Origin: a virus
Taxonomy: Duplodnaviria; Caudoviricetes
IMG/VR virus record: IMGVR_UViG_3300042922_000517
Location: 1-51,010 of that record
Length of the DNA: 51,010 nucleotides
Strand: one strand, 5' to 3'
In this document: piece after piece, positions 36,653-48,438 of the stretch
Layout of the letters: each line of letters opens with the position of its first letter
Numbering within the stretch: the stretch's first letter is position 1
Notes under the pieces: generated by a model
Database searches by the model: none
Told to the model about the DNA's origin: nothing
Seen by the model: the letters and a program-made list of their open reading frames with translations, nothing else
Program-made: the position numbers and the translations under genes

Positions 36653-37300
36653 GTGCGGATTGTGGAAGAGAAGAATCTGAAAGAAATATTCTCAGTAAAT
36701 ATACTCTTATTAAGAAAAAGTAAGAATATGACTCAAGGTGATCTTGCCGATGTTTTAGGGGTCGGTATTTCCACTGTATCGGATTGGGAAAAGGGAAAAA
36801 AGTATCCTAGATCTGGCGCCACCGAAAAAATATCGGAATACTTCAATGTTTCTAAGAGCAGGTTGTTCGAAGAAGCTAAGAGTGTTAGTGATTTGTATGA
36901 AGATGCTAACGAGATTTCTGCACTTCCGATCGTAGGGGGAATATCATGCGGGAATGGAACGATTGCGTACGAGAACATTGATGGATATGAAGACACGCCT
37001 AAGTCATGGGTCCGTGGTGGAGAATTCTTTTATCTTAGAGCTTCTGGTGATAGTATGATCAATGCGAGAATATTTGACGGAGATCTCCTATTAATTCGTA
37101 AACAAGAATATGTAGAAGATGGCGAAATTGCTGCCGTTCTTATTGATGATGAGGTATTTCTAAAAAGAGTATACAAGAATGATGATACTTTAATTCTACA
37201 GTCAGAAAACCCTACATATCCTCAAATTACAAAAACCGCTTCTGATCATCAAAACATAAGAGTGATTGGAAAATTGAAAAGAATTATCATCAAACTTTAA
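36653..37300 (+). CDS. cI: CI-like repressor (XRE HTH + S24 autopeptidase)
   Basis: HTH; ISCG cleavage-site region; GDSM catalytic Ser; LKR catalytic Lys. Confidence 0.93.
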   Translation: MRIVEEKNLKEIFSVNILLLRKSKNMTQGDLADVLGVGISTVSDWEKGKKYPRSGATEKISEYFNVSKSRLFEEAKSVSDLYEDANEISALPIVGGISCGNGTIAYENIDGYEDTPKSWVRGGEFFYLRASGDSMINARIFDGDLLLIRKQEYVEDGEIAAVLIDDEVFLKRVYKNDDTLILQSENPTYPQITKTASDHQNIRVIGKLKRIIIKL

Positions 37301-37306
37301 ATAGAG

Positions 37307-38740
37307 GTGAGCATTTTGACTGTCGCCATATACATTAGGGTTTCGACAGATGAACAAGCAGAACAAGGCTATTCAATCGATTTTCAAAAAGAAAAGCTAA
37401 TCCATTATTGCAAATCGCAGGACTGGGACGACTACAAATTATACATAGACGATGGATATACAGGAACTAACATGGAAAGACCAGCTTTAAAACGTATGCT
37501 CCGGCATATAAAAGAAAAAAGGGTAACAGCCGTATTGGTCTACAAGTTAGATAGATTGAGTCGGAGGCAACGTGACATTTTAGAGCTTATTGAAGACGAA
37601 TTCGAAAAAAACGGAGCTTCTTTCACTTCTTCTGTTGAAAAAATCGACACTTCTACTGCTTTCGGCAAAGCTATGCTTGGTGTTTTAGCGGTTTTCGCAC
37701 AATTGGATAGGGATATGATTATCGAACGGACTACTGCCGGCAGGCGGCAAAGGGTTAGCCAGGGTAAATGGTATGGAGGGCGTATACCTTTTGGATATAG
37801 TTGGAACAGGGAATTACAGCAATTAGAAATAATACCAGAAGAAGCTCGCATAATTCGAGAATCATATAGATTATATCTAAATGGTCACTCGCGGTTGTCT
37901 ATTGCCGAATGGGCTGCTCCTCGCTGTCTTAGCAGGACAATAGATCATTCTGTAATCAGGGACATTCTTTCAAGACAAATTTATACTGGGAATCTTGGGT
38001 ATGTCGGGAATATCTATGAAGGAAAACATGAAGCCATCATTGATCAGGCTACATGGGATGCGGTTCAGATTGAGTTAGAAAAAAGAAAGGATGGAGCCAC
38101 CCCGATAGGAGTATACTTGTTAACTGGATTACTCCAATGCGGAGTATGTGGCGGAAATGTAGTCCATGTAAGAAGGAAATCAAAACATAAAAATAAGGAA
38201 TATGTCTATGAATTCTATGGATGTAAAGATCAACATGTAAGGCCAAAAGATAGAAGAGCCGGAAAAGCCTGTACAATGGGTTATATTAGGAGAGACGAAG
38301 TTGAAAAGTTTGTGATTTCAAAAATAAAGGATATCTCCTTAGACCCTACAAAAATAACTAATATGTTGAAAAACAAAAAAGGCGAAGTTTCTGATTTAAA
38401 TGAACAAGTCATGCAATTGAACGATTCACTTAAAAAAGTAAATACAAATCTCGAAAATCTATATGATGCAATTCAGAATGGAGACATTAAGGCTTCAGCT
38501 GTAAGTGATAGAATTAAAAACCTCGAATTACAAAGAGATAGACTCGAAGAAGATCTGGATGATATTTTAGACATTAACCCCAAAGCAATTGACGAAAAGA
38601 AAACACAAAAACTATTCCACGATATAGGAACTGCATGGGAATTTTTCACTGAGGACGAACAAAAGATAGCTGTCCGGAAGTTGGTAAAATCCATTTCTCT
38701 TATCAAAGGTACCCCACCAGAAATTGAATGGTTCTTCTAA
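37307..38740 (+). CDS. int: Large serine integrase
   Basis: YIRVST catalytic Ser, DRLSR, recombinase domain, CGVCG zinc ribbon, coiled coil. Confidence 0.96.
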   Translation: MSILTVAIYIRVSTDEQAEQGYSIDFQKEKLIHYCKSQDWDDYKLYIDDGYTGTNMERPALKRMLRHIKEKRVTAVLVYKLDRLSRRQRDILELIEDEFEKNGASFTSSVEKIDTSTAFGKAMLGVLAVFAQLDRDMIIERTTAGRRQRVSQGKWYGGRIPFGYSWNRELQQLEIIPEEARIIRESYRLYLNGHSRLSIAEWAAPRCLSRTIDHSVIRDILSRQIYTGNLGYVGNIYEGKHEAIIDQATWDAVQIELEKRKDGATPIGVYLLTGLLQCGVCGGNVVHVRRKSKHKNKEYVYEFYGCKDQHVRPKDRRAGKACTMGYIRRDEVEKFVISKIKDISLDPTKITNMLKNKKGEVSDLNEQVMQLNDSLKKVNTNLENLYDAIQNGDIKASAVSDRIKNLELQRDRLEEDLDDILDINPKAIDEKKTQKLFHDIGTAWEFFTEDEQKIAVRKLVKSISLIKGTPPEIEWFF

Positions 38741-38745
38741 AACGT

Positions 38746-38797
38746 TTCTTCATTCTTATTATGTTTAGACAAGACAATACATAATAAGAATGAAGAA
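38746..38797. other. Putative intact attP of the serine integrase
   Basis: Perfect 19-bp inverted arms TTCTTCATTCTTATTATGT / ACATAATAAGAATGAAGAA around a 14-bp spacer (central AA at 38771-38772), 5 bp after the int stop. Confidence 0.8.
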
Positions 38798-38859: not shown

Positions 38860-39102
38860 TTATGACTTAATGCTGAGAATTTCTTTAACCCCAGTTATGT
38901 AACTCTCTTCTACCGTATGTTGAGTATGGGATATAAATAAATCTCCTAACTCCATAATTATTTCTGGACTTAACGCCTCTTGACCTCTTAATATATCCAT
39001 AAATGATTTATACCCATCAGGTTTTGAATTAGCCAGTATATCGTCACTTATTTCTGAAATTCTCTTTTCTATACTTGGATTTAACCATTCCAACATATCC
39101 AT
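38860..39102 (-). CDS. Small acidic protein, candidate recombination directionality factor
   Basis: 80 aa, convergent with int across attP; function inferred from position only. Confidence 0.55.
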   Translation of the reverse strand: MDMLEWLNPSIEKRISEISDDILANSKPDGYKSFMDILRGQEALSPEIIMELGDLFISHTQHTVEESYITGVKEILSIKS

Positions 39103-39213
39103 AAATTTTCCCCCAGGTGTATTTTTGTCAATAGCTTTCTACGCGCTGAAAGCACTTATTTTTTTAATAGATATGTGTTACATTTGAATTGTATTTTTTA
39201 GAAATCATTTCAC

Positions 39214-39627
39214 TTAAGGGCTTGTCGGCCAGGACAGGCCCTTAAACAATTTTATTCCATTGCTATTTACTGTTGGAATAGCAGGGTTACCTTCACGGAA
39301 TGATCTATACCCAGAGCTAGACATAGTACAACTCTTTGTCTCTTTTTCAATATTTTCATCAAAATACGCTAGTTTGAATTCCTTATCTACAACTTTTATT
39401 TTATCTACGTTTGCCAACACTCCTCTATCTACCCTCATAAAATTCAATCCGGCCTTTTCAAATGCAGCCTCCCAAAATCTTAAGGGTCCAACGGCAACAT
39501 ATTGTTTTTCTTCGGTGTGAACTGCAATTGATAGTCTATTGTCAAATTGCATATATAAGATATCCTCGACTTTTATTTGCTGAATACCCTTGCCTTCTTC
39601 ATTTTCAGTAACTGTTAAATAGATCAT
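39214..39627 (-). CDS. Stand-alone LytTR DNA-binding protein (no receiver domain)
   Basis: EDILYMQ..VHT..FMRVDRGVLANVDKI; GGGGAG RBS supports start at 39627. Confidence 0.85.
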   Translation of the reverse strand: MIYLTVTENEEGKGIQQIKVEDILYMQFDNRLSIAVHTEEKQYVAVGPLRFWEAAFEKAGLNFMRVDRGVLANVDKIKVVDKEFKLAYFDENIEKETKSCTMSSSGYRSFREGNPAIPTVNSNGIKLFKGLSWPTSP

Positions 39628-39744
39628 ATAACCACTCCCCATCACTTTTCTTCTGTTCCCCCTTATTAATGCCGGCAATATAATCGTGTGTTATAATTCT
39701 ATCGAGATCACCTTCTTAACTTAATTTTAATAATTGGAGGTATT

Positions 39745-39972
39745 ATGGCGCTATCCTACGGATCGTGCCTGATGCGGTCCATTCGCCTCTCGAAAGGGTT
39801 GACGCAAAGCCAGTTGTCTGACCGTATATTCGATAAAACAGGGATTAGAATATCTGTCACAACGATCTCTTATTTCGAAACGAACGAGAGACAAATGTCG
39901 GCATTGCAACTGCGAGCTGCAGCAATCGCGTTAAAAACCACCGAGAAAAAGCTTTACGAATGGACAATGTAA
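39745..39972 (+). CDS. XRE-family HTH regulator
   Basis: IRLSKGLTQSQLS..TISYFETNER; GGAGG RBS. Confidence 0.85.
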   Translation: MALSYGSCLMRSIRLSKGLTQSQLSDRIFDKTGIRISVTTISYFETNERQMSALQLRAAAIALKTTEKKLYEWTM

Positions 39973-40186
39973 TGCACAGGCCGGAGTAAGTTTTTTTACT
40001 CCTCCGATAAGGACAAGTTAACAAAGCCCATAAATAAACATTTGTCAACACCGTTTCGCCCGTTGGCTTAATTCTATTAAATCCCATATCAAGATTTAAG
40101 TAAACTTAATTTCATCGCGCTGAATATTATTGAGTTACACGCGCGTTTCGACAACATATTACAAAACAATTGTGCTATAATATTCG

Positions 40187-40216
40187 CAAAAAAAGAGCCC
40201 CCTTAGGAACTCTTTT
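40187..40216 (-). terminator. Terminator of the agr-like operon
   Basis: AAAAGAG-TTCCTAAGGGGG-CTCTTTTTTT on the minus strand. Confidence 0.65.
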
Positions 40217-40221
40217 CTCGC

Positions 40222-40602
40222 CTATGCCAAACTTGTTTTTTTCTGAATTACACTGTACTTTTCCTTCGCTTTTTCAAAGTTAATATTTGTGAAGGTGCAC
40301 CGCTTCGAAGTGTGAGTTATATTTTCTTCGAAATACGCTATATGATACATTTCATCCAAAACAACTATCCTATCTAAATTAACGACATTTGTTCGATCAA
40401 CAGCAACAAAATTATATCCATTACTGTCTAACCCATTTTGCCAGTATTTTAGAGTGCCTGTTAAGAAAAATGAGGAATCAACCGTATGAACTATAACCCT
40501 ATCAATTCTACGTTCAAATTCCATGAAAGCAACCTCTTTTATAGGTAAAGAGATGAGACCGCTCTCAGCGTTAATATCTTTACTTACCACTAAGCTGTCC
40601 AC
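40222..40602 (-). CDS. Stand-alone LytTR DNA-binding protein (no receiver domain)
   Basis: KEVAFME..VIVHT..GTLKYW..FVAVDRTNVVNLDRI; paralog of 39214..39627. Confidence 0.85.
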   Translation of the reverse strand: MDSLVVSKDINAESGLISLPIKEVAFMEFERRIDRVIVHTVDSSFFLTGTLKYWQNGLDSNGYNFVAVDRTNVVNLDRIVVLDEMYHIAYFEENITHTSKRCTFTNINFEKAKEKYSVIQKKTSLA

Positions 40603-40617
40603 TTATACCATCTCCAT

Positions 40618-40734
40618 CTATTTCAGAAGTTCTTTAGGAGCATCTCCGCCATAAATGAACAATGCGCTCGCTGGAGTAACGGTCAGTAGGGCTACGAATG
40701 CCAGAGCAGAAGAAATCATATTCCATTTTTTCAT
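40618..40734 (-). CDS. agrD: AgrD-like cyclic lactone autoinducer precursor, 38 aa (not in ORF track)
   Basis: MKKWNMISSALAFVALLTVTPASALFIYGGDAPKELLK; AGGAGG RBS inside the agrB 3' end; amphipathic leader, Ser-led core and PKELLK tail. Confidence 0.88.
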   Translation of the reverse strand: MKKWNMISSALAFVALLTVTPASALFIYGGDAPKELLK

Positions 40735-40735
40735 A

Positions 40736-41260
40736 TTAGTCTTTCACCTCCTTTCGTGGAATTAAAGTCAGGGACTGTACCAGGAAGCAAGCAGCTATTA
40801 CTGCCGATCCAACTATGAGGTTCAGCGATATCAGCATTACCGAGGCTACTTTTAAATGTGGGTAATACTTCTTCGGTATTCGTGACTGATTAGCAATTCC
40901 GGACGGTGCGAACAACAATGCCAATAAGATACTGATTATAGTGAATATAGAAGTTAACAAGTGATTCACATTTACATATGAAAGGCCCACAAATAATGTA
41001 GTTGTAACGACCACACACATATCTCCCGTTTTCAAATGAAATCCACCCGATATCATTCGAAGTAATGCAAATGACGCCATAATAATTATTACTTCTTTCG
41101 TGTGTCCGGTTAACACGCCCCCGATAACCGTAAGAACAATAATGGACACCGTATTTATCAAAACAGCTAATGCATGCTTAAGCACAGCCAATGAGGCAGG
41201 GTGCTCCGGGGCTCTATTCTTCACAGCAACCGCCATTTTAAGCGATATCTGATCTATCAC
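40736..41260 (-). CDS. agrB: AgrB-family peptide-processing membrane protein
   Basis: LRMISGGFH..C catalytic motif, FAP, multiple TM helices, QSLTL end. Confidence 0.93.
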   Translation of the reverse strand: MIDQISLKMAVAVKNRAPEHPASLAVLKHALAVLINTVSIIVLTVIGGVLTGHTKEVIIIMASFALLRMISGGFHLKTGDMCVVVTTTLFVGLSYVNVNHLLTSIFTIISILLALLFAPSGIANQSRIPKKYYPHLKVASVMLISLNLIVGSAVIAACFLVQSLTLIPRKEVKD

Positions 41261-41880
41261 ATATCTCTCTCCTTTTTTATAGCATATCTAAGGAAAATTA
41301 ATAATGAAGCTACAAAGAAGATAAGAGCTATCCAAATTTCATTCACATAAAGAATAAACGTAATGGCAATTAAAAATAGAATGATAGTCGCAAGTATTAT
41401 GATAAGCTCATATTTCAATCTGAATTTTTCTAAATCAAATGAAAAACCATAGCCGAATTTATACAAAATCATTGAAATAGGTACAACAAAAACCGTAGTA
41501 GATGTTTGAAGTATGTACCCGTATGTAATATTAGACTGGGCAACATCAATAGATCCGAAGAGCAGAATAGCCAACATTGCCTGGACCATACCAAAACCAA
41601 CTAACCCCACGATTGACATCATAAATGAGCCTATCAACGATATCTTTACTACAGCTGCATACAACAGGGTGAAAAAGAGTACGTTAATTAATGGAGCTAG
41701 GTATGCAAGAGACAACTCATTCCGCAAAATGAAACTTTGTAAATTCATGAGCAAAATTACAAATAGCGCTTCCCAAAAGTAGTCCATTATTTTAAATCTG
41801 AAAACACTCATACTTAACGCATACCAGGCGAAAACTTCTAATGTTGAAAAAAATACAAACCCAATCGGCTCTAACGACAC
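41257..41880 (-). CDS. Polytopic membrane protein resembling an AgrC sensor domain, with no kinase domain
   Basis: About 7 TM segments; ends right after the last TM with its stop overlapping the agrB start; likely GTG start at 41880 after AGGCGG. Confidence 0.7.
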   Translation of the reverse strand: MSLEPIGFVFFSTLEVFAWYALSMSVFRFKIMDYFWEALFVILLMNLQSFILRNELSLAYLAPLINVLFFTLLYAAVVKISLIGSFMMSIVGLVGFGMVQAMLAILLFGSIDVAQSNITYGYILQTSTTVFVVPISMILYKFGYGFSFDLEKFRLKYELIIILATIILFLIAITFILYVNEIWIALIFFVASLLIFLRYAIKKERDM

Positions 41881-42000
41881 AAAACAACACCGCCTGACAT
41901 AATTTTCATTCAATAGATTAATTATAGTTGTTTATACCTATCTGAGTATACTAAAATATGCATTTATAGAGTACGGTCAGGCGGCTTGTTACGCGATCAT

Positions 42001-42246
42001 TCACACATCGATTTCTTCCCATCCGGGAGGCAGTTCATCTTCGGCAACCGGCTCCAGAGATTCTGCCTCAATCATGACCAGTAAGATATTCCCGATGTCT
42101 ACCGATGCCCCTTTGATGACCTTCTTATTATCCAGTGACTTTGTCTCCCCGACAGCAACGACATTACCCACCCGGCCGCCGTAGCCGCTGGGATGACCCT
42201 CGCTGATCCGGACCGGCAGCCCCACATGTAAATCCTCTAATCTCAT
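42001..42246 (-). CDS. Hypothetical protein (KOW/SH3-like)
   Basis: Likely start MRLEDLHVG overlapping the previous stop. Confidence 0.6.
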   Translation of the reverse strand: MRLEDLHVGLPVRISEGHPSGYGGRVGNVVAVGETKSLDNKKVIKGASVDIGNILLVMIEAESLEPVAEDELPPGWEEIDV

Positions 42247-44016: not shown

Positions 44017-44083
44017 GCTTAATACATAGAAATATTTACCTCCATCTGATAAACTGTCCGTATTAATCCATATGGAGGTATTT

Positions 44084-44827
44084 ATGAATAAGAAAAAGTT
44101 AATAGTATCTGCTATTGCTGCGTTGATGTTGGTATCATCTTTCACTGCCGGCGCTTATGCTGCCACTAAGTTCAAATTGATTGTAAATGGCAAAGCATCC
44201 TCTGCAGATATCCGCGAAATCAATGGATCTACTTATGTTCCTTTAAAGGATGTCGCTGAATTGCTTGGAGCAAAGGTCGGATTTGACAACAACACAAAGA
44301 CAGTAACCATTACCAGCCAAGGGCAGAGCTCTCCATCTCAAACAAGCACACCTGCTGCAGCTGCTCAAAATAGCCGCACGAAGCCTGCAGCAATCGGATC
44401 TACTATTCCTTTTGCCGTTGATTCTGTAGTAAATAAATACAGTGGGCAGGTAACTATATCTCAGATTATCCGCGGGGACGAAGCGTGGAGCATGATTCAA
44501 AGCACTAATCAATTCAATGAAGCACCAAAGGATGGATTCGAATATTTACTTGCTAAAGCTAAAGTTAGTATTACAGCAAATAATAAGGCAGCTGACGGCG
44601 CTGTAGATATCTGGAGTGGTGACTTCACCTTAGTTTCAGCAGCCGGCACTGATTATGATCGGCTGAGTGTAGTCTTACCTGATCCCGGAATAGATGCTAA
44701 TATTTATGCTGGATCCTCGAAAGAGGGCTGGGTAGCATTCCAAGTTAAAAAGGATGATTTATCTCCGGTTATCAGCTATGCACGTAAGTATGACGGTACC
44801 GGCGGCGCTTGGTTTAAAACAAACTAA
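44084..44827 (+). CDS. Secreted surface protein: signal peptide, copper-amine-oxidase-N (stalk) domain, DUF4352-like domain
   Basis: MNKKKLIVSAIAALML..AYA; STYVPLKDVAELLGAKV; S/T/Q linker; C-terminal Ig-like domain (IYAGSSKEGWVAFQV). Confidence 0.8.
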   Translation: MNKKKLIVSAIAALMLVSSFTAGAYAATKFKLIVNGKASSADIREINGSTYVPLKDVAELLGAKVGFDNNTKTVTITSQGQSSPSQTSTPAAAAQNSRTKPAAIGSTIPFAVDSVVNKYSGQVTISQIIRGDEAWSMIQSTNQFNEAPKDGFEYLLAKAKVSITANNKAADGAVDIWSGDFTLVSAAGTDYDRLSVVLPDPGIDANIYAGSSKEGWVAFQVKKDDLSPVISYARKYDGTGGAWFKTN

Positions 44828-44874: not shown

Positions 44875-45276
44875 CTATTTAATATGATCTTTTAACGCCT
44901 CCCCTACCTCAGTTGTATACCGAGTAAGTCGTAGGCTGATTTCTGTCCGCATCACGTCCCGAGTCATTCCAAAGCGCTCCTGATATCCCCGGAAGAAGAT
45001 AGTATTATACGTGATGAAATCGTCCTGCGTATCCTCAACCACTTTGATATCTCGCTTCTTGAGCTCCTGACGCAACTGGTAGACATCTTTCACAATCTGC
45101 TTTTGGATATAACGGCCGGCAGTTACATAGGCTCTTCGGAGTACGTTTCCAGAGAGCTCTATTTCCTTTATGCTCTTGGCGACCATTGTATCTATGTATG
45201 GCAGCAGGATAAGATCCCGGATCATTGTTCTTTCTTCAACTGTCAGCATTTTATGTCCAGAGTTCACATTGCTCAT
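44875..45276 (-). CDS. YhjD-like protein
   Basis: EERTMIRDLILLP..DVYQLRQELKKRDIKV..FRGYQERF resembles Bacillus YhjD; SOS box upstream. Confidence 0.6.
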   Translation of the reverse strand: MSNVNSGHKMLTVEERTMIRDLILLPYIDTMVAKSIKEIELSGNVLRRAYVTAGRYIQKQIVKDVYQLRQELKKRDIKVVEDTQDDFITYNTIFFRGYQERFGMTRDVMRTEISLRLTRYTTEVGEALKDHIK

Positions 45277-45420: not shown

Positions 45421-45774
45421 TTATTGTACTGGATTTTGTGACTTAAGATAGGCTGCCTCAATGGCTGCCCGGATCTCCGCAGGCGTGACCTTGATTCCCT
45501 TGCGCCCTAACTGCTGAGTGGCATACTCCAAGGCTTGCGCAAGTTTGATCTGACTTTCGGAGCTTTTATAAACCGTCTCTGCATAGGCATAAGCCTCACC
45601 GGCCACCTTGTGCAGCAGCTCCCGCTGTGTCGCGTCCAACTTACTATCCAGATAATTAACAGCCTTTGCCTTGACAACGCCTACAGCAGACAACAGGACG
45701 GCAACCAGGGCACCTACGAGGGCCGTTACAACAGTCGTCACATACGGCTGAGCCGCTTCTACAATCGGTTGCAT
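45421..45774 (-). CDS. Holin (LL-H type)
   Basis: One N-terminal TM; AYAYAE..KLAQAL..IRAAIEAA; follows the endolysin. Confidence 0.8.
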   Translation of the reverse strand: MQPIVEAAQPYVTTVVTALVGALVAVLLSAVGVVKAKAVNYLDSKLDATQRELLHKVAGEAYAYAETVYKSSESQIKLAQALEYATQQLGRKGIKVTPAEIRAAIEAAYLKSQNPVQ

Positions 45775-46523
45775 TATTTAGTCTCCTTTGTCGTCAATGT
45801 AGCTGTCTTACTGATATTGTTCCATTCAACTTGCGCGCCAATTGCTTCGCCAATCGCAGCCAGCGGCACATATACCCGTCCTTCAATGAGCACACTCTCT
45901 GCTGCCAGCCGGTTACCGTTTACTACTGTGCCTGCTTTATCTACTCTCACGTCATTTGCCTCCTTCAGATACCGTTCGATTTGTGCCAGAACCTTTGCCG
46001 TCTGTGTCTCTGTGGGCTGCGCTCCCGCCTGCAACTGCTTAATCGATAGGCCAAATGTCATTTCAAAGTGCGGGCCGTCAAAGATGCTCTCAAAGTCACC
46101 ACCCCAGAAGAACCCCAGCGCCTTTGCTTCCTCCACCACTTCATTCCAATCCTTCACCTTGTCGCCGTCACCGTCCCGGAGCATGTCCCAGGACACACTT
46201 GAACCGTTTGGTAGCAGCAGCGCAAAATCGATGGCAAGTCCGTAATTATGATTGCTCGAGCCGCCGATTGCATTCGTAACCCATTTTTCCTTTGGTTGCG
46301 CCTTAACATGTGAGAGACCAACAGCATTTAGTTGTTCCTGCGTCCGGCTTTTTGCGTATAAGGCGTTCTGTTCGGCCTTGGTGCGTAGCCCCTGCGTGAT
46401 TACAATCGGCACGCCCCGGGAATAAGACCGTTCAATAAGCGCATTCGTAGCTGCCAGTACTGCCGGTTGTAATCCGACTAGTCGGGACTTTGATTTGAGT
46501 TTCACCTGATCAAGCGTTAGCAT
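45774..46523 (-). CDS. Endolysin: M15 L-Ala-D-Glu peptidase with C-terminal copper-amine-oxidase-N-like domain
   Basis: ITQGLRT, SNHNYGLAIDF, WGGDF and DGPHFE motifs; C-terminal GRVYVPL..IGAQVEWNN. Confidence 0.92.
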   Translation of the reverse strand: MLTLDQVKLKSKSRLVGLQPAVLAATNALIERSYSRGVPIVITQGLRTKAEQNALYAKSRTQEQLNAVGLSHVKAQPKEKWVTNAIGGSSNHNYGLAIDFALLLPNGSSVSWDMLRDGDGDKVKDWNEVVEEAKALGFFWGGDFESIFDGPHFEMTFGLSIKQLQAGAQPTETQTAKVLAQIERYLKEANDVRVDKAGTVVNGNRLAAESVLIEGRVYVPLAAIGEAIGAQVEWNNISKTATLTTKETK

Positions 46524-47445: not shown

Positions 47446-48438
47446 TTATTGTACTAAATACCGTTTGTGTTGTTCCCGCTTACGTTCTTCGGTAATTCTG
47501 GCATACCGGAGTGTGGTCTGCGGATCCGAATGGCCCATAAGTTCCTGCACAGCGACCAACTCCGCGCCATTATTAAGCGTGAGCGTTGCAAAGGTGTGCC
47601 GCAGCACATGCGGGCTCACCTTGTCCTGAAGCCCAGCTGTACGGGCAATAACGGCTATCTCCCGCTGTATGCCCCGTTTGGTCAGGCGGCGATACTCCTT
47701 GCGCTCTGTCACCATCAGAGCCCCGCAGTTATCATTCCGGCTCTTCAGATATTTGTTGAGGTGGTACATTGCTTTGAACGAAAAGTAAACCTCCCGCTCC
47801 TTATTCCCCTTACCGATCACTCGACAACTCATAGATTGTTGATTGATTGCGTCCCGGTCCATCCCGTAGACCTCAGACAGCCGGCAGCCTGTTGCATACA
47901 TGATTTCGATAAAGGCCCGCTGCCGGACCGTCTTGCAGGATTCCCGCAGCATCTCCAACTCAGGGATTGTCAGAGCTTTCGGCAGCCGCTTCTCCAGCTT
48001 CGGCGTTTTTAGCTTGGCGGATGGGTCACGGGGAATAATCTCCTCCCCTGAAAGCCAGCCGAAGAAGCTTTTAAGTACGGACAACTTCTTGCCGATCGTA
48101 CTCATCTTGAGGTGATTGAATTGTCCAAGGTATGCCCGTATATCGGCGGCTGTGACGTTGTCTGTCCGCTTGCGAACGTGACGGAAGAATATGTGTAGGT
48201 CCAAGGCATATCCGTCCAGCGTCAACGGACTGAGCCCTTCCAGGCGCTTTGATGATAGAAACATCTTGAGCTTCTCTTCGCCATCCGGGTGCGGTTCATC
48301 TTCTTTGATACGCTGAATATGGTAATCAGACACAATGATAGATAGTATAGACTTTGTTCGTTCAACTTCTAAATCAGGGAAAACGTTATAAATCACGGCC
48401 ACGACATCGGACAATAGCTGCTCACTTGCATTATTCAT
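47446..48438 (-). CDS. XerC/D-like tyrosine recombinase
   Basis: SAM-like N-terminal domain; complete catalytic set TGCRLSE, GKGNKER, HVLRH, GHS, TLRY. Confidence 0.95.
   Translation of the reverse strand: MNNASEQLLSDVVAVIYNVFPDLEVERTKSILSIIVSDYHIQRIKEDEPHPDGEEKLKMFLSSKRLEGLSPLTLDGYALDLHIFFRHVRKRTDNVTAADIRAYLGQFNHLKMSTIGKKLSVLKSFFGWLSGEEIIPRDPSAKLKTPKLEKRLPKALTIPELEMLRESCKTVRQRAFIEIMYATGCRLSEVYGMDRDAINQQSMSCRVIGKGNKEREVYFSFKAMYHLNKYLKSRNDNCGALMVTERKEYRRLTKRGIQREIAVIARTAGLQDKVSPHVLRHTFATLTLNNGAELVAVQELMGHSDPQTTLRYARITEERKREQHKRYLVQ

What the first reader, a model, noticed from the sequence alone, without database searches (positions are those of the whole stretch)
39214..41880. Phage-encoded agr-like signalling cassette with no kinase and no receiver domain, beside attP
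Seen: a tightly coupled operon of an approx. 7-TM protein, agrB, a 38-aa agrD missed by the ORF track (candidate Ser-lactone core around S-A-L-F-I/Y) and a LytTR-only protein, followed by a second LytTR-only paralog divergent from an XRE gene. The membrane protein ends cleanly after its last TM with its stop overlapping agrB, so it does not look like a decayed kinase. Known: canonical agr signals through AgrC His-kinase to AgrA (REC+LytTR); C. difficile phage phiCDHM1 carries agrB/D/C homologs; streptococcal LytTR regulatory systems (HdrRM, BrsRM) pair a membrane inhibitor with a LytTR factor without phosphorylation. Inference: this may be a phosphorylation-independent cyclic-peptide communication circuit. 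It could inform lysis/lysogeny or excision (functionally analogous to, but unrelated to, arbitrium) or interfere with host agr.
Basis: partly seen in the sequence, partly recalled or inferred. Interest (0 to 1): 0.85.

Follow-up and report, generated by a model that had tools for sequence, protein, structure and literature searches.

The report
Kinase-free agr peptide cassette in phage
A temperate Paenibacillus-type phage carries a peptide-signalling operon of the agr kind in which the usual sensor kinase is reduced to its membrane sensor part and the usual regulator to its bare DNA-binding part, so the signal is probably read without phosphate transfer, which nobody has tested.

Summary
On the minus strand lie a 207-aa seven-helix membrane protein (TM7), AgrB, a 38-aa AgrD and a 126-aa LytTR-only protein. 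A convergent XRE gene and a second LytTR-only paralog follow. The record is a circular temperate siphophage genome, and the cassette sits between the lysis genes and the serine integrase/CI genes.

It is not a decayed copy. Among 66 distinct TM7 relatives, AgrB follows in 66. A LytTR gene follows in 53 of the 62 with enough sequence, and 50 of those are short. No adjacent kinase appeared in the neighbouring frames I checked, which was not every locus. The loci are Paenibacillus chromosomes, plasmids, 12 IMG/VR viral contigs, and phages Abouo and Harrison.

The TM7 family profile aligns end to end with the sensor region of AgrC-type kinases that occupy the same position before agrB-agrD. Shuffled controls never reach those scores. 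TM7 therefore looks like a sensor-only AgrC relative.

How the signal reaches the LytTR protein is inferred, not shown. So is any effect on lysogeny.

A 2014 paper mentioned such phage cassettes in passing. This scan has also noted the cassette before on other DNA (41 notes, at least 33 genomes). Verdict: a new variant of a known kind, interest 0.7.

The parts
41921..41953 (-). Operon promoter region: conserved element TAGTATAC-N5-TAGGT where a -35 box would lie, and a TATAAT -10 box (41926-41921). A conserved leader ...ATGAAAATTATGTCAGGCGGTG (ribosome site) follows.
   Evidence: Alignment of 15 upstream regions, all but L022 sharing the TATAC...TATAAT...CAGGCGGTG elements. The element occurs once in the window. 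Which protein binds it is unknown.
41257..41880 (-). TM7: 207-aa seven-helix membrane protein, N-terminus outside and C-terminus inside by the positive-inside rule. Probable sensor-only relative of AgrC.
   Evidence: No Pfam or NCBIfam family. No fold match in PDB or BFVD.
40736..41260 (-). AgrB, the AgrD-processing membrane peptidase. Its start overlaps the TM7 stop. It has the GGFH-x6-C motif.
   Evidence: Pfam AgrB E 1.8e-17. H-x6-C is present in 64 of 66 cassette AgrBs. That these are the catalytic His and Cys of S. aureus AgrB is recalled, not tested.
40618..40734 (-). AgrD precursor, 38 aa. Predicted ring S-A-L-F-I (Ser lactone), C-terminal recognition tail YGGDAPKELLK.
   Evidence: The mature region is identical in locus L001 (Paenibacillus pseudetheri).
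40222..40602 (-). LytTR1: 126-aa LytTR-only DNA-binding protein with an extra C-terminal helix (residues 106-125).
   Evidence: Pfam E 6.8e-8. AF2 pLDDT 93.9. Foldseek hits 4g4k/3bs1 at E about 1e-6, TM 0.83.
40186..40221 (-). Stem-loop followed by a T run after LytTR1: likely end of the operon.
   Evidence: Inverted repeat I7 and the sequence read. The consensus terminator scan did not list it.
39745..39972 (+). XRE-type helix-turn-helix gene, 75 aa. Convergent with the operon and divergent from LytTR2.
   Evidence: HTH_3 E 9.7e-6. A convergent XRE gene is present in 15 of 38 distinct cassettes with at least 2.4 kb of sequence after TM7.
39214..39627 (-). LytTR2: second LytTR-only paralog, 137 aa from the ATG, 28% identical to LytTR1.
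   Evidence: Pfam E 5.3e-9, alignment A2. Relatives were seen only in L004 (65%) and L087 (57%).
36653..38797 (+). Neighbouring lysogeny genes: CI-like S24 repressor (36653-37300), large serine recombinase (37307-38740), inverted repeat after it (38746-38797).
45421..46523 (-). Holin and endolysin: the phage module on the other side of the accessory region that holds the cassette.

Best explanation
This is a kinase-free variant of agr peptide quorum sensing, carried as an accessory operon by a temperate phage.

Proposed mechanism:
- AgrB cuts the 38-aa AgrD and closes a five-residue ring through Ser (S-A-L-F-I). The ring peptide leaves the cell.
- TM7 is a relative of the membrane sensor part of AgrC-type kinases and has no kinase part. 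It binds the peptide on its outer face.
- TM7 passes the information to the bare LytTR protein by direct contact, holding or releasing it. The conserved, positively charged loop between helices 5 and 6 and the C-terminal tail are the likely contact sites.
- The freed (or captured) LytTR protein acts on the operon's own activator-type promoter and on further targets.
- In the phage, the convergent XRE gene and the second LytTR paralog may couple this to the neighbouring lysogeny genes.

Shown here: gene content, conservation of the layout, the Ser/Cys position in AgrD, the LytTR fold, and the likeness of the TM7 family to kinase sensors.

Inferred: peptide binding by TM7, contact between TM7 and LytTR, autoinduction, and any effect on the phage life cycle.
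For: Layout conservation:
- AgrB follows TM7 in 66 of 66 distinct cassettes. AgrD is detected in 61 of 66.
- LytTR follows in 53 of the 62 cassettes with enough sequence, and 50 of those are short.
- No kinase turned up next to a TM7 cassette in the neighbouring frames I scanned with Pfam. This was a sample, not every locus.

TM7 as a sensor relative:
- The TM7 profile aligns over positions 5-197 of 209 with the N-terminal sensor region of kinases that stand directly before agrB-agrD.
- For 4 of 7 such kinases the scores are 11-14.5 bits. Versions shuffled within 20-residue windows score a mean of -17 to -19 (sd about 4), and 0 of 300 reach the real score.
- Three staphylococcal-type AgrC controls fall within their shuffles.
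- Those kinase loci encode the same AgrD type (T-A-S, Ser at -10) without any TM7-like gene in 10 kb. TM7 and the kinase therefore replace each other.
- hhalign of TM7 against these sensors gives E 9e-4 over 146 collinear columns. Two undoubted AgrC sensor groups compared with each other give only E 0.016.

Other support:
- AF2 shows seven helices. Charges place the conserved 5-6 loop and the tail inside (read from alignment A1).
- LytTR divergence follows TM7 divergence beyond AgrB (partial r 0.50).
- The promoter has a conserved element in place of a -35 box.

Phage context:
- The genome is circular.
- Of 12 IMG/VR loci, 8 have relatives of this phage's lysis-region genes upstream, 3 of them with CI, cro or int downstream as well. 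L079 has int, CI and Ant downstream, and L089 has CI and cro downstream.
- Phages Abouo and Harrison have the cassette beside their integrases.
Against: - The peptide ring co-varies with AgrB given TM7 (partial r 0.21, p 0.0005) but not with TM7 given AgrB (r 0.015, p 0.40).
- 9 of 62 cassettes keep TM7-AgrB-AgrD without an adjacent LytTR gene. TM7 is therefore tied more tightly to peptide making than to the regulator.
- TM7 and AgrB are translationally coupled, as subunits of one complex often are.
- Two cassettes (L058, L059) have a receiver plus LytTR protein with Asp58, Thr87 and Lys109 in place. This hints at a kinase elsewhere.
- The reverse test is weaker. Real TM7 proteins score a mean of -2.8 against the kinase-sensor profile, against -11.6 (sd 4.0) for shuffles. 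Only 3 of 29 exceed every shuffle, and the window's own protein scores -6.9.
- No LytTR-style pair of direct repeats was found.
- The promoter element occurs only once in the phage, so no phage target is known.
Confidence: 0.5

Rival explanations
1. Phosphorylation still happens, in trans. TM7 is a sensor-only subunit that pairs with an unlinked host kinase, or the bare LytTR protein pairs with a full-length host regulator. The cassette would then plug into a host phosphorelay.
For: Two related cassettes carry a receiver plus LytTR protein with intact phospho-site residues and no adjacent kinase. Kinase-agrB-agrD loci without an adjacent regulator also exist, so unlinked partners are normal in this family.
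Against: Within the 10-kb stretches examined, both agrB loci of genomes G001 and G002 are of the kinase-free type. Fifty of 53 adjacent LytTR proteins have no receiver. I did not search those genomes for orphan AgrC-type kinases.
Confidence: 0.2
2. TM7 is a helper of peptide maturation or export, playing the role of MroQ or signal peptidase in S. aureus. The LytTR proteins are controlled in some other way.
For: TM7 is linked to AgrB in 66 of 66 cassettes, with overlapping stop and start codons. Nine cassettes have no LytTR. The ring co-varies with AgrB and not with TM7. Polar residues in the helices are invariant: S12, E15, R28, S49, R53, E158. MroQ's role is known from PMC9388083 (search listing and abstract only).
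Against: The TM7 family resembles kinase sensor regions. Kinase-type loci make the same AgrD type without TM7. There is no CPBP or other protease family hit and no conserved His.
Confidence: 0.12
3. It is an interference module. The phage makes a peptide, a signal-binding decoy and a DNA-site competitor in order to jam or mimic the host's own agr-type system. It does not run a circuit of its own.
For: The mature peptide region is identical to that of a cassette in P. pseudetheri whose proteins are only 60-70% identical. There is a second LytTR paralog. The cassette has 36-37% G+C against 45-50% in the rest of the phage.
Against: The same four-gene layout is conserved in ordinary chromosomal settings, where there is nothing to jam. 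The four parts diverge together (r about 0.9).
Confidence: 0.1

Closest known systems
agr-like cassettes of Brevibacillus phages Abouo, Davies and Emery and Paenibacillus larvae phages Harrison and Paisley (mentioned in Hargreaves et al. 2014, PMC3901668)
   Same: For Abouo and Harrison I checked the same four genes in the same order beside the integrase: a 222-aa membrane protein (my TM7 profile E 9e-44 and 3e-37), AgrB, a 42-aa peptide, and a 118-122-aa protein that matches my LytTR profile (E 1e-21 and 1.5e-13). [quoted passage not shown]
   Different: Identity is low: AgrB 29-34%, and TM7 is not found by tblastn. The fourth gene is annotated 'peptidase' in both records. The 2014 passages on these three phages list no regulator among their cassette genes. 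No bench work on these cassettes turned up in my searches. Abouo's peptide has Lys near the ring position instead of Ser.
Canonical agr quorum sensing (agrBDCA of Staphylococcus aureus)
   Same: AgrB, and AgrD with the ring residue 10 positions before the conserved Pro. There is a membrane sensor and a LytTR DNA-binding domain with the AgrA fold.
   Different: No DHp/ATPase part on the sensor and no receiver domain on the regulator. The gene order is sensor first. The ring residue is Ser rather than Cys.
agrC-agrB-agrD loci without a regulator (agr3 of Clostridioides difficile and phage phiCDHM1, PMC3901668; like-ordered loci L122-L125 here)
   Same: The sensor gene lies directly before agrB-agrD, and in phiCDHM1 the locus is phage-borne. 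The sensors of L122, L124, L125 and L102 match the TM7 profile.
   Different: Those sensors are full kinases of 441-469 aa with no LytTR gene beside them.
LytTR regulatory systems HdrRM and BrsRM of Streptococcus mutans (PMC6193735)
   Same: A receiver-less LytTR regulator is encoded with a membrane protein, and signalling is thought to work without phosphorylation.
   Different: There the regulator gene comes first and the membrane inhibitor directly after. No peptide-making genes are described in the passages I read. TM7 matches no Pfam family at threshold (its only match, DUF5099, is at E 0.075, below the cut-off). HdrM carries DUF2154.
Arbitrium (AimR-AimP-AimX) of SPbeta-like phages
   Same: A phage-borne peptide signal encoded next to the lysogeny genes. 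This is a likeness of placement and possible use only.
   Different: The proteins are unrelated. Arbitrium uses a linear peptide taken up and read by a cytoplasmic receptor (recalled). Here there is a ring peptide and a membrane sensor.

Membership tests
agr quorum sensing (agrBDCA) | AgrB peptidase | tested here: met
   PF04647 E 1.8e-17. H-x6-C motif present.
agr quorum sensing (agrBDCA) | AgrD precursor with Cys/Ser ring residue and conserved C-terminal tail | tested here: met
   Ser lies 10 residues before the Pro of PKEL. Ser or Cys holds this position in 41 of 49 cassettes. TIGR04223 alone is below its cut-off.
agr quorum sensing (agrBDCA) | AgrC sensor histidine kinase (HATPase_c_5) | tested here: not met
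   TM7 is 207 aa with no kinase domain. All 150 best profile hits are at most 248 aa.
agr quorum sensing (agrBDCA) | AgrA with receiver plus LytTR domains | tested here: not met
   LytTR1 and LytTR2 hold the LytTR domain only.
AgrC sensor (membrane) module | Sequence likeness to the N-terminal membrane region of AgrC-type kinases | tested here: inconclusive
   The family profile matches 4 of 7 kinases that stand before agrB, far above shuffles. The reverse test is weak, the window's own protein is not significant alone, and hhalign probability is 23%.
LytTR regulatory systems (HdrRM/BrsRM type) | Receiver-less LytTR regulator | tested here: met
LytTR regulatory systems (HdrRM/BrsRM type) | Regulator gene first, membrane inhibitor gene directly after it | tested here: not met
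   Here the membrane gene is first and agrB and agrD lie between. The family's order is described in PMC6193735.
LytTR regulatory systems (HdrRM/BrsRM type) | Membrane protein holds the regulator inactive | not testable with these tools
   Needs two-hybrid or reporter work.
CPBP/MroQ-type membrane protease | Family match and conserved Glu/His motifs | tested here: not met
   No Pfam hit. No conserved His in alignment A1.
Arbitrium | AimR-type receptor and AimP peptide | not tested
   None of the cassette proteins matches such a family in Pfam. I made no dedicated search for AimR elsewhere in the window.

The most novel reading that the evidence does not exclude
A ring-peptide signal is read with no phosphate transfer at all. 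A sensor-only AgrC relative directly holds or frees a bare LytTR factor. Temperate phages of Paenibacillus and Brevibacillus use this as their own communication channel, an arbitrium-like function built from unrelated parts. In the phage it is wired through the convergent XRE gene and the second LytTR paralog to the choice between lysogeny and induction.
Probability: 0.2. Interest if true: 0.9.

Novelty: new variant of a known kind. Interest (0 to 1): 0.7.

Why it matters
All studied agr systems pass the signal by a kinase and a phosphorylated regulator. Here a whole family, in at least 66 distinct cassettes, has neither. One group of related loci still has the full kinase in the same position. 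This gives a natural before-and-after pair for asking how a membrane sensor can control a DNA-binding protein without phosphorylation.

The cassette recurs in temperate phages next to their lysogeny genes, including phages that are in culture (Abouo, Harrison). The question of whether phages of this group talk by ring peptides can therefore be tested directly.

It would also correct database names. The fourth gene is annotated 'peptidase' in both the Abouo and the Harrison record.

Tried and rejected
Co-folding. I co-folded TM7 with LytTR1, each with its alignment. The three runs scored 0.27, 0.31 and 0.27 against a mark of 0.32, so the tool gave no verdict and ran no controls. I count this neither for nor against binding.

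Fold searches of the TM7 model. No match at E <= 0.001 in PDB (0 of 85 listed) or BFVD (0 of 35).

Protein Atlas. Only unnamed clusters.

Longer fused forms of TM7. None among 8000 scored candidates, which is weak evidence.

hhalign of TM7 against other sensors. Staphylococcal AgrC sensors and three AgrC-like sensors from large genomes gave nothing. Two true AgrC groups do not find each other either.

Direct repeats of the LytTR kind in 39100-42100. None.

Second copies of the promoter element in the phage. None.

Consensus promoter and terminator scan. Not above shuffles.

Whether TM7 might be the 'AgrE' acetyl transferase of P. polymyxa (PMC12180512, passages read). The text does not say what kind of protein AgrE is. 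Its table S3 is a supplement that I could not see, so this stays open. That peptide (ICFGLF) and locus are of the canonical type according to PMC13700820 (passages). A pattern search for that peptide in G003 hit only inside an unrelated gene.

Rejected readings. A decayed kinase is rejected on the lengths of relatives. Host DNA wrongly joined to a provirus is rejected because the genome is circular, with phage modules on both sides.

Literature. Five searches gave no paper describing the four-gene unit or testing it. The only mention found is in PMC3901668.

Not done. I made no search for orphan kinases in the host genomes, no expression data, and no last word-index search for receiver-fused relatives of LytTR1.
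Full report
WHAT IS THERE. On the minus strand of the window lie, in order:
- TM7 (41880..41257, 207 aa)
- AgrB (41260..40736)
- a 38-aa AgrD (40734..40618)
- a 126-aa LytTR-only protein (40602..40222)
- a stem-loop with a T run

An XRE-type gene on the plus strand (39745..39972) converges on this operon. It diverges from a second LytTR-only gene (39627..39214).

The TM7 stop and the AgrB start overlap (GTGA). Pfam finds AgrB (E 1.8e-17) and LytTR in both small proteins (6.8e-8 and 5.3e-9). It finds no kinase, ATPase or receiver domain. TM7 matches no Pfam or NCBIfam family. G+C is 36-37% over the cassette, against 45-50% in most of the record.

THE RECORD IS A PHAGE AND THE CASSETTE IS INSIDE IT. 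PHROGs and Pfam name the following genes:
- tape measure, large terminase, portal and major head protein
- Ant and a DnaD-like loader
- holin (45421-45774) and endolysin (45774-46523)
- a tail fibre protein that runs off the right end
- a CI-like S24 repressor and a large serine recombinase

Reading the minus strand, the order is tail, tail fibre, lysis, small accessory genes, the cassette, then an inverted repeat, then int and CI on the other strand. The cassette therefore lies in the usual accessory region between the lysis genes and the integration site. It is not in host DNA.

THE LAYOUT IS A CONSERVED FAMILY, NOT A WRECK.
- The word-index search gave 31 relatives of TM7. Most are 204-212 aa (range 131-319), and every one that carries a name is from Paenibacillus.
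- A profile search of 1.84 billion representatives gave 451 hits at E <= 0.001. The 150 listed are 58-248 aa.
- The named members of ten distant clusters are all Paenibacillus or Paenibacillaceae 'hypothetical proteins'.
- A search among proteins of 372-2000 aa found nothing, which is weak evidence.
- TM7 occurs in 23 of 401 sampled genomes of the class. AgrB occurs in 114 of 401.

I then pooled the loci from genome contigs, genome searches, IMG/VR and two cultured phages. Counts from this pool:
- 66 distinct TM7 sequences
- AgrB directly downstream in 66 of 66
- AgrD detected in 61 of 66
- a LytTR gene after AgrD in 53 of the 62 that have at least 1.4 kb of sequence after TM7
- of those 53, 50 are short frames, 2 (L058, L059) are receiver plus LytTR, and 1 (L057) is a 244-aa LytTR protein without receiver
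- 9 have no adjacent LytTR

No kinase gene turned up next to a TM7 cassette in the neighbouring frames I scanned with Pfam. I did not scan every neighbour of every locus.

In genomes G001 and G002 the second agrB locus is a more distant version of the same layout. It has a 247-aa membrane protein (hhalign 96% to TM7), AgrB, and a 110-aa LytTR-only protein.

WHERE THE CASSETTES LIVE. Many are in ordinary chromosomal settings, next to GGDEF, lysA/scpA, ABC permease/TetR, adhE and an esterase (ten neighbours of six loci). Locus L001 lies among mobile-element genes: FtsK, Replic_Relax, Rha, and relatives of this phage's genes. Three Paenibacillus plasmids carry TM7 relatives.

In the 12 IMG/VR contigs the neighbours were matched to this phage's proteins:
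- 8 have relatives of its lysis-region genes (endolysin, or the 133-aa protein at 44875-45276) upstream of the cassette.
- 3 of those 8 (L082, L088, L079) also have CI, cro or int downstream.
- L079 has a serine recombinase, CI and Ant downstream.
- L089 has CI and cro downstream.

INPHARED has no tblastn match to TM7. AgrB, however, finds Brevibacillus phages Abouo, Davies and Emery and P. larvae phages Harrison and Paisley. In Abouo (gp44-47) and Harrison (genes 38-41) the four genes are the same by my profiles, and the fourth is annotated 'peptidase'.

THE PEPTIDE. In 41 of 49 distinct cassettes a Ser (39) or Cys (2) lies exactly ten residues before the conserved Pro of the P-x-E-L tail. 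By my recollection of the S. aureus precursor this is the spacing of the ring Cys in staphylococcal AgrD, and the staphylococcal-type loci L095-L119 show it. The Ser/Cys exchange between close relatives (L014 and L017) marks it as the ring residue.

The window's ring would be S-A-L-F-I. The four ring residues vary between cassettes while the flanks are kept, as in known agr pherotypes. The mature region is identical in L001 (P. pseudetheri), although the proteins there are only 60-70% identical. Eight divergent cassettes, and phage Abouo, have Lys one position later and no Ser or Cys. Earlier notes of this scan saw the same.

WHAT TM7 IS. AF2 gives seven helices at pLDDT 85.5. The charges put the N-terminus outside. 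They put the conserved loop between helices 5 and 6 (GYGFSFD-EK-R-K-E) and the tail (KKE) inside (read from alignment A1).

Some genomes of the class have an AgrC-type kinase of 441-469 aa (HATPase_c_5 and SPOB_a) directly before agrB-agrD. Their AgrD is of the same T-A-S/Ser type, and there is no TM7-like gene or LytTR gene within 10 kb.

Forward test. My TM7 profile aligns over positions 5-197 of 209 with the first 200-220 residues of these kinases. Against versions shuffled within 20-residue windows, which keep the helix and loop layout, four of seven kinases score 11-14.5 bits. The shuffles average -17 to -19 (sd about 4), and 0 of 300 reach the real score. Of the other three kinases, one (L110) also has 0 of 300, at 0.8 bits, and two are weak (3 of 300 and 8 of 300). 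Three staphylococcal-type AgrC proteins lie within their shuffles.

Reverse test. This is weaker. Real TM7 proteins average -2.8, against -11.6 (sd 4.0) for shuffles. Only 3 of 29 exceed every shuffle, and the window's own protein scores -6.9.

hhalign gives E 9e-4 (probability 23%) over 146 collinear columns. Two undoubted AgrC sensor groups do not recognise each other (E 0.016).

I read this as probable distant kinship of the family with one group of AgrC sensors. Together with the same gene position and the either-or distribution of TM7 and kinase, it points to TM7 as a sensor without a kinase.

THE REGULATORS. The LytTR1 model (pLDDT 93.9) matches the AgrA LytTR domain (4g4k, 3bs1; E about 1e-6, TM 0.83) and ComE. 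It has an added 20-residue C-terminal helix. LytTR2 is 28% identical to LytTR1 and has relatives only in L004 and L087. A convergent XRE gene is found in 15 of 38 distinct cassettes with at least 2.4 kb of sequence after TM7.

THE PROMOTER. Fourteen of the 15 aligned upstream regions share TAGTATAC-N5-TAGGT where a -35 box would be, then TATAAT, then a conserved leader with the ribosome site. The fifteenth, L022, does not share them. The absence of a TTGACA-like box fits an activator-dependent promoter. The element occurs once in the window, and I found no LytTR-style direct repeats.

RESULTS THAT CUT THE OTHER WAY.
- The ring varies with AgrB given TM7 (partial r 0.21, p 0.0005) but not with TM7 given AgrB (r 0.015, p 0.40). 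LytTR follows TM7 given AgrB (r 0.50) and AgrB given TM7 (r 0.40). All these are confounded by common descent (41 and 27 cassettes).
- TM7 stays with AgrB and AgrD where LytTR is missing.
- The receiver in L058 has Asp58, Thr87 and Lys109, so a kinase acting in trans is possible in at least that branch.

WHAT IS KNOWN.
- Hargreaves et al. [quoted passage not shown] Those passages list no regulator among the genes of the three cassettes.
- A 2025 review repeats the agr point for phages of Bacillus and C. difficile (PMC11945551, passages).
- The LytTR regulatory systems paper (PMC6193735, passages) describes receiver-less LytTR factors held by membrane inhibitors, with the regulator gene first and no peptide genes.
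- The P. polymyxa agr papers concern a canonical agrABCD locus (PMC13700820 and PMC12180512, passages).
- My five literature searches found no description or test of the four-gene unit.
- This scan has met the cassette before on other DNA: 41 notes in at least 33 genomes. Their readings agree with mine and are not independent evidence.

VERDICT. The thing is a kinase-free, receiver-free variant of agr peptide signalling. It is conserved in Paenibacillaceae chromosomes and repeatedly carried by their temperate phages next to the lysogeny genes.

The best-supported mechanism is peptide sensing by a sensor-only AgrC relative that controls a bare LytTR factor by contact (confidence 0.5). A trans-acting kinase (0.2), a maturation role for TM7 (0.12) and signal interference (0.1) remain open.

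It is a new variant of a known kind. It has been noticed in passing in print but not characterised, and it is testable in culturable phages.

Noticed in passing
L045, L047, L053, L055, L056, L064, L065 (and L120, phage Abouo gp46): A divergent branch of these cassettes has AgrD peptides with no Ser or Cys at the ring position. Instead a conserved Lys lies one residue later (for example ..MKPMYH-SPEAPKEL, ..FKFGLG-SPEIPEEL). This may be a different ring chemistry, such as a lactam, or a different cut.
   Followed up: partly
L058:3243-4004 and L059 (same layout): TM7-AgrB-AgrD is followed by a full receiver plus LytTR regulator with Asp58, Thr87 and Lys109 intact, but no kinase within 10 kb. This may be an intermediate form between kinase-type and kinase-free cassettes.
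   Followed up: partly
G003 (P. ottowii; L012/L013, L025/L026, L024, L029): One genome holds six TM7-AgrB cassettes. These include two pairs of identical copies about 60 kb and 38 kb apart, which may be duplicated mobile elements.
   Followed up: no
window 44072-44827 (+): A secreted protein with a copper amine oxidase N-terminal domain and DUF4352 lies upstream of the cassette. A DUF4352 protein also sits just before the cassette in phage Harrison (gene 37), and relatives occur in L080 and L088.
   Followed up: no
window 47446-48438 (-): A tyrosine recombinase gene lies between the tail fibre gene and the lysis genes, in addition to the serine integrase at 37307-38740. The assembly break (15-base end repeat) falls inside the tail fibre gene nearby.
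   Followed up: no
window 39214-39245: A 13-nt-arm inverted repeat overlaps the last codons of LytTR2. The last 25 or so residues of LytTR2 are not shared with its relative in L004.
   Followed up: no
window 38746-38797: A near-perfect inverted repeat (19-nt arms) lies directly after the serine recombinase gene, followed by a convergent 80-aa gene with no family match. This is the candidate attP noted by another first-stage finding.
   Followed up: partly
L120 (Abouo gp47) and L121 (Harrison gene 41): The genes annotated 'peptidase' in these phage records match the LytTR-only profile (E 1e-21 and 1.5e-13), so the database name is probably wrong.
   Followed up: yes
alignment A2, column of 'SK-R-C': A Cys is kept in nearly all cassette LytTR proteins, in the motif S-K-x-C shortly before the C-terminal helix. 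Its meaning is unknown.
   Followed up: no
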